64,000 bases of DNA from Candidatus Omnitrophota bacterium (GTDB lineage Bacteria; Omnitrophota; Gorgyraeia; Gygaellales; Profunditerraquicolaceae). The translations under genes and the position numbers were made by a program. Shown one piece after another: positions 3,483-63,249 of this stretch; within the stretch, counting starts at the first letter, position 1, and each line of letters begins with the position of its first letter. Where the stretch lies: NCBI GenBank assembly GCA_028715785.1, contig JAQURC010000002.1:219393-283392 (forward strand), written 5' to 3'. The notes under the pieces were generated by a model. The model saw nothing but the letters and a program-made list of their open reading frames with translations. It searched no databases and was not told where the DNA came from.

Positions 3483-5456
3483 ATGGGTAAATTTAAATTA
3501 GTTTCCGTTTTTAAGCCCTGCGGAGACCAACCCAAAGCGATAGCGGAACTTTCCAAATCCATCCTGGATAAGAAACCTTATTCGACGCTGCTGGGGGTTA
3601 CCGGCAGCGGTAAAACTTTTACCTTAGCCAACGTAATAGCCAAAACCGGCTTACCCACCCTGGTAATCTCGCATAATAAAACATTGGCCGCCCAGCTTTA
3701 TTCGGAATTTAAAGACTTCTTTCCGCATAACGCGGTTGAATATTTTGTAAGTTATTACGATTATTACCAGCCGGAAGCCTACATTCCTTCCACGGATACC
3801 TATATAGAAAAAGATTCATCGATTAATGAGCGGCTGGACCGCTTAAGGCTGTCGGCGACAACCTCGTTAATGAGCCGCAAAGATGTAATTATCGTGGCCT
3901 CGGTTTCCTGTATCTATAACCTGGGTTCTCCCCAGGATTACCAGAAGATGCTGGTAATCTTAAATACGAAGGAAAAAATCCAGAGGGATGAATTGATTAC
4001 CCGGCTCATCCGGATCCAATATGAGCGCAATGATTATGAATTCAAACGCGGAAAATTACGGGTGCGCGGGGACGTAATCGAAATATTCCCTTCCTACAGC
4101 GAAGAAGCGCTGCGCGTAGAAATGCGTGGTGATTTAATCGATAAAATCTCGGTAATTGAACCGGTATCCGCAAAGACAATCAGCGTTATCGACAAAGCCG
4201 CGATTTATCCGGCAAAACATTTTATTGTTTCAGGCGACAGGGTTGATACGGCGATTAAATCCATAAAAGAAGAGCTGGCCATACAGTTAGAAAATCTGAA
4301 GAGAAAAAATAAATTACTGGAAGCCCAGCGCCTCCAGTCCCGCACAAACTACGACCTGGAAATGCTCAAAGAAATAGGCTACTGCCACGGGATCGAAAAC
4401 TATTCCCGGCACCTAAATGCCTTGCCCGCGGGCGGCCGGCCATATTCGATGATTGATTATTTCCAGGGGGATTTCTTGACCATCATCGATGAGTCTCACG
4501 CAACCATCCCGCAGATAAGAGGCATGTATGCCGGGGACAGGGCAAGGAAAGAGACCCTGGTAGATTACGGTTTCCGGCTTCCGTCATGCCTGGATAACCG
4601 GCCGTTAAAATTTGAAGAATTCAACCGGCTGGTAAAACAATTGGTTTTTGTTTCGGCTACGCCTGATGAATATGAATTAAAATTAAGCGGGAACAAAATT
4701 ATCGAGCAGATTATCCGGCCTACCGGTTTAATCGACCCTGAAATAATCGTTAAGCCCTCCCGGGGGCAAATCCAGGATTTAATCCTGGAGATAAAAAAAC
4801 GGGCTAAAAATAACCAAAGAACCCTGGTAACCACCCTGACCAAAAGAAACTCCGAAGACCTGGCTAATTACCTGGCCGAAAACGGAATAAAAGTAAAATA
4901 CCTGCATTCCGAAATACAAACTATCAGCCGTTCGGTAATCCTGAAAGAGCTGCGCCAGAAGAAATTTGATTGCTTAGTGGGGATTAATCTGTTGCGCGAA
5001 GGGCTGGATTTACCGGAGGTCTCATTGGTTGCCATCATCGACGCGGATAAAGAGGGGTTCCTGCGCAGCTCGACCAGCTTAATCCAGGTAGCCGGAAGGG
5101 CCGCGCGTAATATCGACGGGACGGTAATTATGTACGCCGATACGATTACCGGTTCGATGAAAAAAGCAATCCGGGAAAGCAACCGCAGAAGAAAAATCCA
5201 GCTGGAATACAACCGGAAGAATCAAATTACTCCCCGCTCAATCCAAAGGTCAATCAAAGAAGGGATAGAGAGCTTAGAGGATACCTCGGAATTTGTGCGA
5301 GAGCTGACCGGAGAACCAAAAGAGCAATACCAGTTGCATAAATATATATCCGAGTTAGAATATGAAATGGAATTGGCGGCGCGGAATTTGCAATTTGAAA
5401 AAGCGTCCGGGTTTAGGGACAAGATCAAGGAGCTGCGTAATGCTGCTGGCAATTGA
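3483..5456 (+). CDS. uvrB: Excinuclease ABC subunit B
   Basis: 657 aa. N-terminus FKLVS..KPCGDQPKAI, Walker A GVTGSGKTFT, helicase motifs and a C-terminal UvrB/UvrC interaction helix. Confidence 0.95.
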   Translation: MGKFKLVSVFKPCGDQPKAIAELSKSILDKKPYSTLLGVTGSGKTFTLANVIAKTGLPTLVISHNKTLAAQLYSEFKDFFPHNAVEYFVSYYDYYQPEAYIPSTDTYIEKDSSINERLDRLRLSATTSLMSRKDVIIVASVSCIYNLGSPQDYQKMLVILNTKEKIQRDELITRLIRIQYERNDYEFKRGKLRVRGDVIEIFPSYSEEALRVEMRGDLIDKISVIEPVSAKTISVIDKAAIYPAKHFIVSGDRVDTAIKSIKEELAIQLENLKRKNKLLEAQRLQSRTNYDLEMLKEIGYCHGIENYSRHLNALPAGGRPYSMIDYFQGDFLTIIDESHATIPQIRGMYAGDRARKETLVDYGFRLPSCLDNRPLKFEEFNRLVKQLVFVSATPDEYELKLSGNKIIEQIIRPTGLIDPEIIVKPSRGQIQDLILEIKKRAKNNQRTLVTTLTKRNSEDLANYLAENGIKVKYLHSEIQTISRSVILKELRQKKFDCLVGINLLREGLDLPEVSLVAIIDADKEGFLRSSTSLIQVAGRAARNIDGTVIMYADTITGSMKKAIRESNRRRKIQLEYNRKNQITPRSIQRSIKEGIESLEDTSEFVRELTGEPKEQYQLHKYISELEYEMELAARNLQFEKASGFRDKIKELRNAAGN

Positions 5457-6177: not shown

Positions 6178-6775
6178 AGCCGCGTTCATTTTAACAGCTG
6201 CACTCCTTTGGGCGGGGATTTTTTCCTTTTCTTGTGCCGAAGAAAATAAACCCGCAGATAAAACTGAAACCGGGGTGGTTATCGAACAGGCGCTTAAAAA
6301 TTATGAAACATATAAACAAAAAGAACAGGAGGAATTGGCAAAAAAACTAAACTCCAGTTTAAACCAAATAATCCAAAGCTGGATAGCTTCGGCCAAAGTG
6401 AATAAGGAGAACGCCCTGGGCAGCCGCCTCCAACAAAGCTGGGAGAAACTATCCCCGCTCTATCCGATCTCGCCGGTGCCTTATGAATATTATTTACGGG
6501 GATACAAATACAGCCTGATTAAAAGTGACATAGCTAAAACCGACTCTATTCTTGCTCCTTATAAGGCCGCGGTTGCCATAAAGGAGGACCTTTATGTAGA
6601 AAAAAACCACTCTCCGGATATCAGTGACGCCGATCCTTATTTTTATACGGTTACTACGGCCTACAACTTAAACCTTGAATACCGGCAGGACGGATTTACA
6701 TTGATCAATAGCGACAGTAAAGTCGTAAACATAATAAATGACGCCCCTGTTGAAATAAAGAAATCCCGGCTTTAA
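6161..6775 (+). CDS. Hypothetical secreted protein
   Basis: 204 aa ORF with an N-terminal hydrophobic signal-like segment (FILTAALLWAGIFSFSCAEEN). No motif recognised. Confidence 0.4.
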   Translation: MEIKFKAAFILTAALLWAGIFSFSCAEENKPADKTETGVVIEQALKNYETYKQKEQEELAKKLNSSLNQIIQSWIASAKVNKENALGSRLQQSWEKLSPLYPISPVPYEYYLRGYKYSLIKSDIAKTDSILAPYKAAVAIKEDLYVEKNHSPDISDADPYFYTVTTAYNLNLEYRQDGFTLINSDSKVVNIINDAPVEIKKSRL

Positions 6776-8849: not shown

Positions 8850-8888
8850 ACCCTTAAGAATTTAAGGTTAAACGGAAAATATAAAAAA

Positions 8889-8924
8889 AACGGCTGATCT
8901 CGATTACGGGATCAGCCGTTTTTA
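8889..8924 (+). terminator. Rho-independent terminator after groEL
   Basis: Hairpin AACGGCTGATC...GATCAGCCGTT followed by a T-run. Confidence 0.6.
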
Positions 8925-36117: not shown

Positions 36118-36142
36118 TTTTCACCTGCCCCTATTATAACAC

Positions 36143-36210
36143 AGAATCAGGGAACATTTCTATTTTTTTTCTATTTTTTTCAAAAAAAATAGAAATGTTC
36201 CCTGATTTCT
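36143..36210. repeat. Long near-perfect palindrome (28-bp arms, 11-nt spacer) in a divergent promoter region
   Basis: AGAATCAGGGAACATTTCTATTTTTTTT ctatttttttc AAAAAAAATAGAAATGTTCCCTGATTTCT. Arms are related to the 59043-59121 element. Confidence 0.7.
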
Positions 36211-36227: not shown

Positions 36228-36256
36228 TTGACAAATTAACAGTATTATTATAGAAT
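36228..36256 (+). promoter_or_regulatory. Candidate sigma-70 promoter for the guaB-like gene
   Basis: TTGACA (36228-36233), 17-nt spacer, TAGAAT (36251-36256). Confidence 0.45.
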
Positions 36257-56242: not shown

Positions 56243-56268
56243 GTAGGGCGGGTTTAAACCCGCCCTAC
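56243..56268. terminator. 26-bp perfect palindrome GTAGGGCGGGTTTAAACCCGCCCTAC (terminator-like hairpin without a U-tract)
   Basis: Directly downstream of the glyQS stop. Shares the GTAG-N6-GTTTAAAC-N6-CTAC format with 59069-59094. Confidence 0.5.
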
Positions 56269-59042: not shown

Positions 59043-59121
59043 GGGACAGTTTCTATTTTTTGTACTTTGTAGCTGACGTTTAAACGTCAGCTACCCTGTG
59101 GATAAAAATAGAAACGGTCCC
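59043..59121. repeat. Nested palindromic element: 18-bp inverted arms GGGACAGTTTCTATTTTT / AAAAATAGAAACGGTCCC enclosing a 26-bp perfect palindrome GTAGCTGACGTTTAAACGTCAGCTAC
   Basis: Outer arms match the 36143-36210 palindrome arms at 17/20 positions. The inner palindrome (59069-59094) matches the format of 56243-56268. Lies between the ppdK stop and the sigma-factor start. Confidence 0.65.
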
Positions 59122-63214: not shown

Positions 63215-63249
63215 AAACCCTCGGAGGAGCAATCCTCCGAGGGTTTTTT
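63215..63249 (+). terminator. Rho-independent terminator
   Basis: AAACCCTCGGAGGA-gcaa-TCCTCCGAGGGTTT followed by TTTT. Confidence 0.7.

What the first reader, a model, noticed from the sequence alone, without database searches (positions are those of the whole stretch)
59043..59121. Nested palindromic element after ppdK / before the sigma-factor gene whose outer arms match the 36.1-kb palindrome
GGGACAGTTTCTATTTTT ... AAAAATAGAAACGGTCCC has one mismatch between the arms. It matches the 36143-36210 arms at 17/20 positions (AGGGA(A/-)C(A/G)TTTCTATTTTTT). The interior differs completely and is a 26-bp perfect palindrome. Shared arms with unrelated interiors argue that the arms are the functional units: protein-binding half-sites or the terminal inverted repeats of a decayed miniature mobile element. 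The position just upstream of a sigma-70 family gene makes a regulatory role plausible. It may also serve as a bidirectional or readthrough terminator for ppdK.
Basis: seen in the sequence. Interest (0 to 1): 0.55.

Follow-up and report, generated by a model that had tools for sequence, protein, structure and literature searches.

The report
Miniature hairpin transposon between ppdK and sigma gene
The 79-base nested palindrome is a small non-coding copy of a mobile element found in one group of uncultured Omnitrophota bacteria, whose full-length form carries a RAYT-like tyrosine transposase gene between the same two arms; it is a new example of a known kind of bacterial repeat, not a control element of the sigma-factor gene.

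Summary
At 59043-59121, two 18-nt arms (one mismatch) enclose a perfect 26-bp palindrome, and the arms recur at 36150-36202.

The arms define a dispersed hairpin family (here "OA", consensus GGGACCGTTTCTATTTTT-loop-AAAAATAGAAACGGTCCC). A pattern scan of species-representative genomes found it only in Omnitrophota-type MAGs: 36 loci in 7 genomes. I counted 49 paired copies and 10 single arms.

Every arm change is compensatory. Copies are intergenic and mostly lie just after stop codons.

In nine loci from independent assemblies (five gene contexts), the same or co-varying arms bracket a ~0.8-kb unit. That unit encodes a 223-225-aa Y1/HUH transposase whose only solved relative is E. coli RAYT (4ER8). 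This is the published "TIRtron/TIRYT" architecture, so the short hairpins are non-autonomous derivatives.

The inner palindrome is not unique. It belongs to a second dispersed family (GTAG-N6-TTTAAA-N6-CTAC), which also stands alone at 56243-56268.

Two close relatives lack the element between ppdK and the sigma gene: one has a 21-nt spacer, the other an unrelated hairpin. A dedicated role in sigma regulation is therefore not supported. This copy has no U-tract after the hairpin in the ppdK direction, so efficient termination is doubtful.

Verdict: a new member of a known kind, of moderate interest.

The parts
59043..59060 (+). Left arm of the OA hairpin element (GGGACAGTTTCTATTTTT). It has one mismatch to the family consensus GGGACCGTTTCTATTTTT.
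   Evidence: matched by covariance model R1 (35.2 bits, E 3e-6).
59104..59121 (+). Right arm (AAAAATAGAAACGGTCCC), identical to the family consensus. In full-length units this arm contains the transposase stop codon TAG.
59069..59094 (.). Nested 26-bp perfect palindrome GTAG-CTGACG-TTTAAA-CGTCAG-CTAC, a member of the second dispersed family (IP).
   Evidence: A near-identical inner unit is nested in an OA copy at L014:7171-7196.
59061..59068 (+). Left linker between arm and inner palindrome (TGTACTTT). Linkers differ between compound copies.
59095..59103 (+). Right linker (CCTGTGGAT).
36145..36207 (.). Second OA copy in the window. Core is 36150-36202, and the perfect stem extends to 26 nt per arm. 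Both arms carry the same two changes (GGGAACA / TGTTCCC). It lies 32 nt upstream of the AAA_22 ATPase start on the - strand and 146 nt upstream of the IMPDH-family (guaB-like) gene. It is orthologous to the copy upstream of that gene in L013.
   Evidence: (72.4 bits).
56243..56268 (.). Stand-alone IP palindrome GTAGGGCGGGTTTAAACCCGCCCTAC, 13 nt after the stop of the class-II aminoacyl-tRNA synthetase gene and 28 nt before the ppdK start.

Best explanation
The 79-bp element is a non-autonomous, hairpin-forming derivative of a "TIRtron". A TIRtron here is a ~0.8-kb unit, found in a clade of Omnitrophota, in which a RAYT-like Y1/HUH tyrosine transposase gene (a "TIRYT") is bracketed by the same 18-nt arms in inverted orientation.

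The short form keeps the two arms and little or none of the interior, so either DNA strand, or a transcript, folds into a stem of 18-28 bp. In this copy the loop carries a second repeat, a 26-bp GTAG...CTAC palindrome from a separate dispersed family.

Shown:
- Family membership and restriction to this clade.
- Compensatory evolution of the stems.
- The arms bracket the transposase gene.
- The ppdK-sigma site is empty in one relative and holds an unrelated hairpin in another.
- Identical copies occur at non-homologous sites.
- An in-frame insertion occurred in a conserved gene.

Inferred:
- The element was placed between ppdK and the sigma gene by the transposase acting in trans on single-stranded hairpin DNA, as proposed for REPIN/RAYT systems.
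- At this site it is transcribed as part of a ppdK-sigma message. There it can at most act as a stable RNA hairpin, as a barrier to 3' exonucleases or as a partial terminator, rather than as a dedicated regulator.
For: Family and clade restriction. A scan of one genome per species (185,579 species) with the arm-gap-arm pattern gave 36 loci. All are in 7 MAGs titled Candidatus Omnitrophota or "uncultured Planctomycetales". With 3 mismatches allowed there are 49 paired copies and 10 single arms in 315 kb.

The hairpin is the selected unit. In 39 aligned copies the 18-bp core shows no one-sided change, 14 double-sided changes and 1 unpaired cell in 702. The four bases outside each arm also covary, and 0 of 500 shuffles reach the observed score.

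Full-length unit. In L121, L122, L123 and L124-126 the left arm lies about 85 nt upstream of the ATG of a 223-225-aa Y1_Tnp gene, and the right arm overlaps its TAG stop. More distant homologues (62-63% identical) keep the layout with co-varying arms (L128, L129). L036 has a full short copy 66 nt from the gene start.

The protein. Pfam Y1_Tnp scores 56-64 bits against a cutoff of 23. The best NCBIfam model is REP_Tyr_transpos. The only PDB hit is 4ER8 TnpA_REP. The HUH motif and the catalytic Tyr are invariant.

Derivation of short copies. The sequence just inside the left arm of L121 (TTACTATTTTTTT) starts the loops of L003, L019 and L023, and resembles the loop of the window's 36150 copy.

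Gain, loss and mobility.
- L037 (sigma protein 86% identical) has a 21-nt ppdK-sigma spacer without the element. L038 has an unrelated hairpin there.
- L012 and L013 share 83 nt at 95% identity, including the loop, at non-homologous sites in two species.
- L014:5121 and L020:1359 are near-identical compound copies at different loci.
- A 57-nt in-frame insertion in purSL of L007 is absent from the closest orthologue, which is 80% identical.

Published architecture. Di Nocera et al. 2013 (PMC3733652, section 16) describe RAYT-like genes flanked by long TIRs, some overlapping the 3' end, with moderately abundant TIR families occurring as dimers.
Against: - No transposition event has been observed, and no target-site duplication of 4 nt or more exists.
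- Most loops are unrelated to the full-length unit.
- Near-perfect arm identity across seven species could also reflect host-level selection or recent horizontal spread.
- The proteins score below NCBIfam's curated cutoff for RAYT (55-64 bits against 80).
- The papers read here report no biochemistry for TIRYT proteins.
- The window contains no Y1 transposase gene, and the rest of its genome could not be retrieved. Whether this organism still has the enzyme is unknown.
- This copy has an arm mismatch and is the only one of 47 with 0 of 6 complementary flank bases. It may no longer be mobile.
- All comparisons rest on metagenome assemblies.
Confidence: 0.78

Rival explanations
1. It is mainly an intrinsic, possibly bidirectional, transcription terminator for ppdK. 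The shared stem sequence reflects a common origin of terminators in this clade, and there is no mobile element.
For: 33 of 47 family copies have an ORF 3' end within 50 nt. Seven copies lie between convergent genes. The flanks are A-rich on the left and T-rich on the right, with positions -6/-5 = AA and +5/+6 = TT in about 43 of 47 copies. The hairpin is very stable. The two readings are compatible, because a mobile hairpin can also terminate transcription.
Against: In this copy the hairpin is followed on the ppdK strand by AAATCAAACCG, with no T-tract, and the scan calls no + strand terminator there. The T-rich tract lies on the opposite strand, where no gene is downstream. In L037 ppdK and the sigma gene are 21 nt apart, which suggests one operon. 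The window uses ordinary GC-stem plus T-tract terminators elsewhere, at 8886-8923 and 63215-63246. This reading does not explain why the arms bracket a transposase gene, nor the in-frame coding insertion.
Confidence: 0.2
2. The arms are half-sites for a dimeric DNA-binding regulator that controls the sigma-factor gene, and also the IMPDH-family (guaB-like) gene at 36.1 kb.
For: The sequence is palindromic and lies just upstream of the sigma gene. The second copy lies in a divergent promoter region near a good sigma-70-like promoter at 36228-36256.
Against: Arm spacing varies from 8 to 50 nt across copies. All arm substitutions are compensatory, which a protein reading each half-site would not require. 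Copies follow dozens of unrelated genes. Close relatives with the same sigma gene lack the element.
Confidence: 0.03
3. It is a classical MITE derived from a DDE-transposase insertion sequence. In that case the terminal inverted repeats are bound as double-stranded DNA and insertion creates target-site duplications.
For: It has terminal inverted repeats, is small, is non-coding, and shows gain and loss between relatives.
Against: There are no direct repeats of 4 nt or more at the ends (0 observed). The flanks are inverse-complementary instead. The only gene found between the arms encodes an HUH Y1 enzyme, not a DDE transposase. TIRs of DDE elements tolerate one-sided changes, and none is seen here.
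Confidence: 0.04
4. The arm is a DNA-uptake-type signal that accumulates by biased uptake. Like Neisseria DUS pairs (recalled from my own knowledge, not checked here), inverted pairs would double as terminators.
For: The motif is conserved across species of one clade. It occurs as inverted pairs after genes.
Against: Single arms are rare: 10 against 49 pairs, and several of the singles lie in clusters. None lies inside ordinary coding sequence in the window. The arms are tied to a transposase gene.
Confidence: 0.02

Closest known systems
TIRtrons and TIRYTs (TIR-associated tyrosine transposases), with their dispersed TIR families (Di Nocera, De Gregorio & Rocco 2013, PMC3733652; subclass 2.1 of Quentin et al. 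2018, PMC6006769)
   Same: A RAYT-like Y1/HUH gene is flanked by long terminal inverted repeats that are not GTAG REPs, and one TIR overlaps the 3' end of the gene. The same TIRs occur as moderately abundant dimers and clusters elsewhere in the genome. TIRs start with a G-run, and some variants here fit the published GGGGWSAS motif (GGGGACAG in L007).
   Different: The host phylum (Omnitrophota) is not among those reported in the papers read. The main arm (GGGACCGT...) does not fit GGGGWSAS exactly. No C-terminal HTH domain was detected by Pfam, whereas subclass 2.1 is said to carry one. The stop codon sits inside the arm, and GTAG palindromes are nested in the loops.
REPIN/RAYT systems (Bertels & Rainey 2011, PMC3116915; Bertels et al. 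2017, PMC5581495)
   Same: Two inverted repeat units form a hairpin, and this is the dispersed, non-autonomous unit. The cognate Y1 transposase gene is flanked by the same repeats. Copies are extragenic. At least one site (upstream of the guaB-like gene) has persisted across species.
   Different: The arms are not themselves short palindromes and carry no GTAG tag. The transposase gene sits in different gene contexts in different genomes and mostly on short contigs, so it looks more IS-like than the single-copy, vertically inherited RAYTs. It scores below the curated RAYT cutoff.
GTAG-tagged REPs (E. coli REP/BIME, Stenotrophomonas SMAG; Di Nocera 2013)
   Same: This applies to the inner palindrome. 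It is 26 bp, has a GC-rich stem, a GTAG at the 5' end, is intergenic, is dispersed at about 1 per 12 kb in the sampled loci, and its stems covary.
   Different: Here GTAG is paired with CTAC, so the unit is a perfect palindrome without an unpaired tag. No transposase gene was found next to it. It lies between co-directional genes (20 of the 21 copies whose two flanking genes could be called) and never between convergent ones.
Rickettsia palindromic elements (RPE) and other REPs inside genes (RPE recalled from my own knowledge; REPs inside genes are in the abstract of PMC3733652)
   Same: One OA copy is inserted in frame in purSL and read through as 19 extra residues.
   Different: This was seen once. 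Most OA copies are intergenic.
Correia/NEMIS elements of Neisseria (from my own knowledge, not checked here)
   Same: Small elements bounded by TIRs that are co-transcribed with neighbouring genes and form long RNA hairpins.
   Different: Correia elements have TA target duplications and a conserved interior, and are not linked to a Y1 transposase.

Membership tests
TIRtron / TIRYT-derived TIR repeat | A tyrosine (Y1/HUH) transposase gene homologous to RAYT is flanked by long terminal inverted repeats. | tested here: met
   Arms in inverted orientation bracket the gene in L121, L122, L123, L124, L125 and L126. Variant arms do so in L128 and L129. Pfam Y1_Tnp is above its cutoff.
TIRtron / TIRYT-derived TIR repeat | The same TIR sequence forms a repeated family elsewhere in the genome, as singles, dimers or clusters. 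| tested here: met
   49 paired copies and 10 single arms in 315 kb from 7 MAGs plus the window. Clusters occur in L030 and L014.
TIRtron / TIRYT-derived TIR repeat | The window's own genome encodes the cognate TIRYT. | not testable with these tools
   No Y1 gene lies in the 64-kb window. The genome is not in the collections searched.
TIRtron / TIRYT-derived TIR repeat | The TIR motif fits GGGGWSAS, and the protein has a C-terminal HTH domain (subclass 2.1). | tested here: inconclusive
   The main arm GGGACCGT and the variant GGGGACGG are near-fits only. GGGGACAG in L007 fits exactly. No HTH domain was detected by Pfam at E <= 1.
REP/RAYT (REPIN) | The protein is a RAYT: HUH motif, catalytic Tyr and RAYT-specific signature. 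| tested here: inconclusive
   HUH and Tyr are invariant. The best NCBIfam model is REP_Tyr_transpos, but at 55-64 bits against a cutoff of 80. The only PDB hit is 4ER8 TnpA_REP, at E 0.0025.
REP/RAYT (REPIN) | The repeat unit is a short imperfect palindrome with an unpaired 5' GTAG (or similar) tag. | tested here: not met
   The OA arms are not self-complementary and have no GTAG. The inner IP unit has GTAG, but it is paired with CTAC.
REP/RAYT (REPIN) | Two inverted units form a hairpin, and that doublet is the dispersed unit. | tested here: met
   There are 49 pairs against 10 singles. Covariation supports pairing.
GTAG REP family (inner palindrome) | A RAYT gene is flanked by the repeat. 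| tested here: not met
   No IP unit lies next to any of the 15 Y1-gene loci examined (L016, L036, L117-L126, L128, L129). The nearest is about 1 kb away in L016.
Classical (DDE) MITE | Target-site duplication as direct repeats at both ends. | tested here: not met
   0 of 47 copies have a direct repeat of 4 nt or more. The excess of 2-3-nt repeats is within what A/T-rich flanks give.
Intrinsic terminator | A GC-rich stem is immediately followed by a U-tract on the transcribed strand. | tested here: not met
   This holds for the 59-kb copy on the ppdK strand, where AAATCAAACC follows the stem and the scan finds no + strand terminator. Most other family copies do have a T-rich right flank.
Rfam RNA families | A match to a curated covariance model. 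| tested here: not met
   Only two tRNAs reach the gathering score in the window. The best local hits are E >= 0.03 and far below gathering scores.

The most novel reading that the evidence does not exclude
The OA hairpins, and the nested GTAG palindromes, may not be mere parasites. They could form a long-lived, vertically inherited sequence population kept by its Y1 enzyme and co-opted by the host as operon punctuation, acting as insulators, mRNA-end protectors or recombination sites.

Observations consistent with this:
- The copy upstream of the guaB-like gene is retained at the orthologous site across species that are about 79% identical in DNA, with four compensatory substitutions.
- Arms are perfectly conserved in seven species.
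- Arm variants pair with transposase lineages.
- One copy lies exactly at a synteny breakpoint.
- One copy is tolerated in frame inside purSL.
Probability: 0.2. Interest if true: 0.55.

Novelty: new member of a known kind. Interest (0 to 1): 0.36.

Why it matters
It explains two conspicuous palindromes in this window, plus a third at 56243, as members of two repeat families rather than gene-specific regulators. That prevents them from being annotated as operators or riboswitch-like elements.

It extends the little-studied TIRtron/TIRYT class of Y1-transposase elements to Omnitrophota. The case is unusually clean. The arms are 18 nt and essentially invariant. The transposase stop codon lies inside one arm. 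Arm variants track transposase lineages. Full-length and miniature forms coexist.

That makes a compact system for testing how RAYT-like enzymes recognise and move hairpin DNA. The repeats are also practical markers for binning and strain typing in this uncultured clade, and they are a likely cause of contig breaks there.

Tried and rejected
- **Core 11-mer enrichment.** TTTCTATTTTT alone is not enriched in the window (14 hits against 8.8 expected). Only the full arm is informative.
- **Source genome.** An exact-protein look-up of the window's sigma factor found no record. The window's own sites were not among the 36 genome hits, so genome-wide counts for this organism were impossible.
- **Rfam.** Nothing was found beyond two tRNAs.
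- **More copies in the window.** A covariance model of the family (R1), run over the whole window with filters off, found no further copies. The weaker hits are generic hairpins.
- **Target-site duplications.** None was found.
- **The 228-aa Y1 paralogue (L016 type).** I tested whether it is the cognate enzyme. It sits in conserved synteny (tyrS - Y1 - brnT) in four genomes and is not flanked by either repeat, so it is rejected as the partner of OA.
- **Transposase for the inner GTAG palindrome.** None was found.
- **The 27-kb segment.** I checked whether the 27 kb separating groEL from the guaB-like gene in the window is a mobile island. It holds ordinary housekeeping and two-component genes, so it is a rearrangement and not an island.
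- **Literature.** Searches for palindromic or REP repeats in Omnitrophota/Omnitrophica returned nothing relevant.
- **Probe sequences.** The RAYT probes used were written from memory and served only as bait. The hits were verified independently with Pfam, NCBIfam and PDB searches.

Full report
**1. The observation**

The sequence is as described. GGGACAGTTTCTATTTTT (59043-59060) pairs with AAAAATAGAAACGGTCCC (59104-59121) with one mismatch. Between them, GTAGCTGACGTTTAAACGTCAGCTAC (59069-59094) is a perfect 26-bp palindrome.

With up to three mismatches, the arm occurs four times in the 64-kb window: the two arms here and the two at 36150-36167 and 36185-36202. Shuffles give 0.11 expected. Either strand folds into one long nested hairpin, at -43.3 and -40.3 kcal/mol, with z of about -8.

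The element lies 13 nt after the stop of a 910-aa pyruvate phosphate dikinase gene and 11 nt before the start of a 271-aa sigma-70-family gene. The 36.1-kb copy lies in a divergent spacer between an AAA_22 ATPase gene on the - strand and an IMPDH-family (guaB-like) gene followed by guaA.

**2. The arms define a clade-restricted hairpin family (OA)**

I scanned one genome per bacterial and archaeal species with the pattern GGGANNNTTTCTATTTT-N17-47-AAAATAGAAANNNTCCC. It returned 36 loci, all in seven MAGs titled Candidatus Omnitrophota or "uncultured Planctomycetales". One MAG (JAHIKK01) holds most of them. The window's own sites were not among the hits, so its genome is not in that collection.

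Allowing mismatches and shorter loops, the 36 loci plus the window (315 kb) hold 49 paired copies and only 10 single arms.

- **Arms.** The consensus is GGGACCGTTTCTATTTTT, and it is identical in almost every copy across species.
- **Loops.** They range from 8 to 50 nt, most often about 17, and are mostly unrelated to one another.
- **Variant arm.** GGGGACGGTTCTATTTTT also occurs, always with its exact complement.

In an alignment of 39 copies, the 18-bp core shows no one-sided substitution, 14 double-sided ones and a single unpaired cell among 702. The four bases outside each arm also covary (for example taat/atta, taaa/ttta, tcca/tgga). Positions -6/-5 are AA and +5/+6 are TT in about 43 of 47 copies. 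None of 500 shuffles reaches the observed covariation.

The window's 36150 copy shows this directly. Both arms carry the same two changes (GGGAACA / TGTTCCC).

The selected unit is therefore a base-paired hairpin, not two independent protein half-sites. No direct-repeat target duplication of 4 nt or more exists. A covariance model of the family finds only the two known copies in the window. Rfam has nothing.

**3. Where copies sit**

Almost all copies are intergenic. 33 of 47 have the 3' end of an ORF of at least 90 aa within 50 nt, and 16 of 47 have an ORF start within 50 nt. For the 38 copies that match the strict scan pattern, the flanking-gene arrangements are co-directional 24, convergent 7, divergent 2 (one being the window's 36.1-kb copy), with 5 undetermined.

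**4. The interior is a second family (IP)**

The pattern GTAG-N6-TTTAAA-N6-CTAC occurs 23 times in the 36 loci, which were not selected for it, and twice in the window. That is about 1 per 12 kb. The second window copy stands alone at 56243-56268 (GTAGGGCGGGTTTAAACCCGCCCTAC), between the aminoacyl-tRNA synthetase gene and ppdK.

GTAG, TTTAAA and CTAC are invariant. The N6 blocks covary (GGGAGG, GGTGGG, GGGGCG, CTGACG, GGCGGG and others). There are 21 double-sided changes at five stem positions, and 0 of 500 shuffles reach the score.

IP units lie between co-directional genes: 20 of the 21 copies whose two flanking genes could be called, and never between convergent genes.

Compound OA(IP) elements like the one in the finding recur at L014:5121, L014:7141, L020:1359 and L029:2355, and in a broken form in L030.

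- The L014:7141 inner unit (GTAGCTGACGTTTAAACATCAGCTAC) differs from the window's by one base, although the linkers differ.
- L014:5121 and L020:1359 are near-identical compound copies at different loci. Compound units are therefore copied whole.

**5. What the arms belong to**

I used RAYT-like probe sequences written from memory as bait only. tblastn found two Y1-transposase genes in the JAHIKK01 loci, and Pfam confirmed both (Y1_Tnp, 56-64 bits against a cutoff of 23). They are 36% identical paralogues.

- **The 228-aa type (L016).** It is single-copy and in conserved synteny (tyrS - Y1 - brnT ... rmlA) in four other genomes. It is not flanked by OA or IP.
- **The 223-225-aa type (L036).** It lies 66 nt from an OA copy and is cut by a contig end. 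Its homologues are mostly on short contigs.

In all six further loci fetched for the second type, covering three gene contexts, the gene is bracketed by OA arms in inverted orientation. The left arm lies about 85 nt upstream of the ATG. The right arm overlaps the stop codon, which is the TAG inside AAAAATAGAAACGGTCCC. The unit is about 780-790 nt.

Homologues only 62-63% identical keep the layout with changed arms.

- L128 uses GGGGACGGTTCTAATTTT / AAAAATAGAACCGTCCCC. That is close to the variant arm seen as short hairpins in L020, L027, L035 and L127, differing at one base of the left arm.
- L129 uses GAAACTAGGGGACGCTTC / GAAACGTCCCCTAGTTTC.

The sequence just inside the left arm of L121 (TTACTATTTTTTT) begins the loops of short copies L003, L019 and L023. 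It resembles the loop of the window's 36150 copy (TTTCTATTTTTTT). At least some short copies are therefore internal-deletion derivatives.

The protein's only solved relative is E. coli TnpA_REP (4ER8). The HUH motif (NHPHLLV) and the tyrosine (GKYIELNPVRAG) are invariant. NCBIfam's RAYT model is the best hit but scores below its cutoff.

**6. Evidence for gain, loss and copying**

- **Empty site.** A metagenome contig whose sigma factor is 86% identical (L037) has only 21 nt between the ppdK stop and the sigma start, with no element. A second contig (L038) has an unrelated GC-rich hairpin there. The A-rich leader just before the ATG is shared by all three, so the element sits between the stop codon and an ancestral leader.
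- **Same copy at non-homologous sites.** L012 (JAHIKK01, upstream of gatC) and L013 (JAZDEW01, between groEL and the guaB-like gene) share 83 nt at 95% identity. The shared stretch includes the loop and 22 nt beyond the right arm.
- **Orthologous persistence.** The window's 36150 copy is orthologous to L013's, with about 79% DNA identity in the flanking genes. It has a different loop and compensated arm changes.
- **In-frame coding insertion.** In L007 an OA copy lies in frame inside a 992-aa purSL gene. It adds 19 residues (57 nt) that are absent from the closest orthologue, which is 80% identical. The insertion point in that orthologue is A-rich.
- **Nested and partly duplicated copies.** These occur in L030 and L014.

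**7. Comparison with what is known**

Di Nocera et al. 2013 (PMC3733652, section 16) describe RAYT-like genes flanked not by GTAG REPs but by long TIRs, some overlapping the gene's 3' end. They name them TIRtrons, encoding TIRYTs, and report moderately abundant TIR families organised as dimers or clusters. They also report REPs inside genes. Quentin et al. 2018 (PMC6006769) place most TIRYTs in their subclass 2.1.

The architecture found here matches. The differences are:

- the host phylum, for which I found no report;
- an arm that only approximates the published GGGGWSAS motif;
- no detectable C-terminal HTH domain;
- the nested GTAG palindromes.

REPIN/RAYT systems (PMC3116915, PMC5581495) are the functional analogue. 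The membership features that fail are the short self-palindromic REP unit with an unpaired GTAG tag, and the curated RAYT score.

**8. How it most likely works, and what it does at this site**

- **Shown.** It is a member of a hairpin repeat family whose arms are the terminal inverted repeats of a Y1-transposase unit. It is absent from the orthologous spacer in two close relatives.
- **Inferred about origin.** It was inserted by the transposase acting in trans on folded single-stranded DNA, as proposed for RAYTs and IS200/IS605 enzymes.
- **Inferred about local function.** ppdK and the sigma gene are only 21 nt apart in L037. In the window no T-tract follows the hairpin on the + strand, and the scan calls no + strand terminator there. 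The element is therefore probably transcribed within a ppdK-sigma message. There a hairpin of -43 kcal/mol could protect the upstream ppdK segment from 3' exonucleases or attenuate read-through, as shown for REPs elsewhere (established knowledge, not tested here).

A specific regulatory role for the sigma gene is not supported. This copy has one arm mismatch and is the only one of 47 with no complementary flank bases, so it may be an ageing copy.

**9. Limits**

All comparisons use metagenome-assembled sequence. The window's genome outside these 64 kb was not available. No transposition or RNA data exist. The partner enzyme of the inner palindrome family is unknown.

**10. Verdict**

The sigma-regulator and half-site readings are not. 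This is a new member of a known kind, of moderate interest.

Noticed in passing
window 56243-56268: A stand-alone 26-bp perfect palindrome GTAGGGCGGGTTTAAACCCGCCCTAC lies between the aminoacyl-tRNA synthetase gene and ppdK. It belongs to the same GTAG-N6-TTTAAA-N6-CTAC family as the interior of the finding, so ppdK is flanked by two members.
   Followed up: yes
window 8850 and 36149, compared with L013 (JAZDEW010000075.1) 6681-6727: In L013, groEL is followed after 47 nt by the OA copy and then the guaB-like gene. In the window, 27 kb of ordinary housekeeping and two-component genes separate groEL from that same OA copy. Homology resumes exactly at the left edge of the OA element, which therefore sits at a rearrangement breakpoint.
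   Followed up: partly
L007 5104-5156 and about 4790-4865 (JAUSED010000003.1): An OA copy lies in frame inside a purSL gene and adds 19 residues (GTVSIFPEPSTRKIETVPF) that are absent from the closest orthologue (P0242/L127, 80% identical). A second, degenerate copy lies in the PurS-PurL linker and also reads ...RKIETVPFF. The orthologue seems to hold a decayed remnant of it (GTVLSNINDKTEPSLF).
   Followed up: yes
L016 945-1631; L117-L120 5001-5687: A second Y1_Tnp paralogue (228 aa, 75-91% identical between genomes) is single-copy. It always lies between tyrS and a brnT-toxin/rmlA region and has no flanking repeats. It shares a conserved 5' leader with the arm-flanked paralogue and looks like a domesticated or immobilised transposase.
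   Followed up: partly
L121 2880-2900 and 3689-3710; L123 3689-3720; L124 2860-2898 and 3689-3720: Just outside both arms of the full-length units lie short tandem partial duplications of the arm foot plus flank. Examples are GGGAATAAT-GGGACC on the left and GTCCCATTGTT-GTCCCATTGTT on the right, and GTCCCTTATTTTT repeated three times in L123. They may be footprints of repeated cleavage or joining at the element ends.
   Followed up: no
L121 2950-3000, L123, L124, L016 895-944: A conserved leader lies before the transposase ATG. It contains an imperfect inverted repeat CCCCTCTTTCTAC...GTAGGAAGGGGG that would sequester the Shine-Dalgarno-like GGAAGGGGG. It shares the CTAC/GTAG and G-rich/C-rich blocks with the IP palindromes, in the reverse arrangement.
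   Followed up: no
L038 237-267: In a close relative, the ppdK-sigma spacer holds an unrelated hairpin, TTGGGGTCGGATC-AAATA-GATCCGACCCCAA. It also has no T-tract on the ppdK strand. This spacer seems to acquire hairpins repeatedly.
   Followed up: no
L119 8405-8446: A 42-nt perfect hairpin, GGGACGCTCCTATTTGTTTT-CT-AAAACAAATAGGAGCGTCCC, is an OA-like variant with different arms in a genome that lacks the consensus arm. It lies near the start of a called epimerase gene.
   Followed up: no
window 8886-8923 and 63215-63246: Ordinary bidirectional intrinsic-terminator-like hairpins (A-tract, GC stem, T-tract) follow groEL and the 453-aa gene. The organism therefore has conventional terminators besides the repeat hairpins.
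   Followed up: no
window 36133-36162 (- strand) and 36228-36256 (+ strand): Two consensus promoter matches. On the - strand, TAGAAA-18-TATAAT with an upstream TG uses the left arm of the 36.1-kb OA copy as its -35-like hexamer and faces the AAA_22 ATPase gene. On the + strand, TTGACA-17-TAGAAT (11/12) lies 26 nt past the element and faces the guaB-like gene, and is conserved in L013.
   Followed up: no
L030 6960-7200; L014 7085-7224: Clusters in which OA copies, half copies and an IP unit are nested or tandemly duplicated, for example a 52-nt left-half duplication in L014. These are likely products of slippage or repeated insertion at hairpins.
   Followed up: partly
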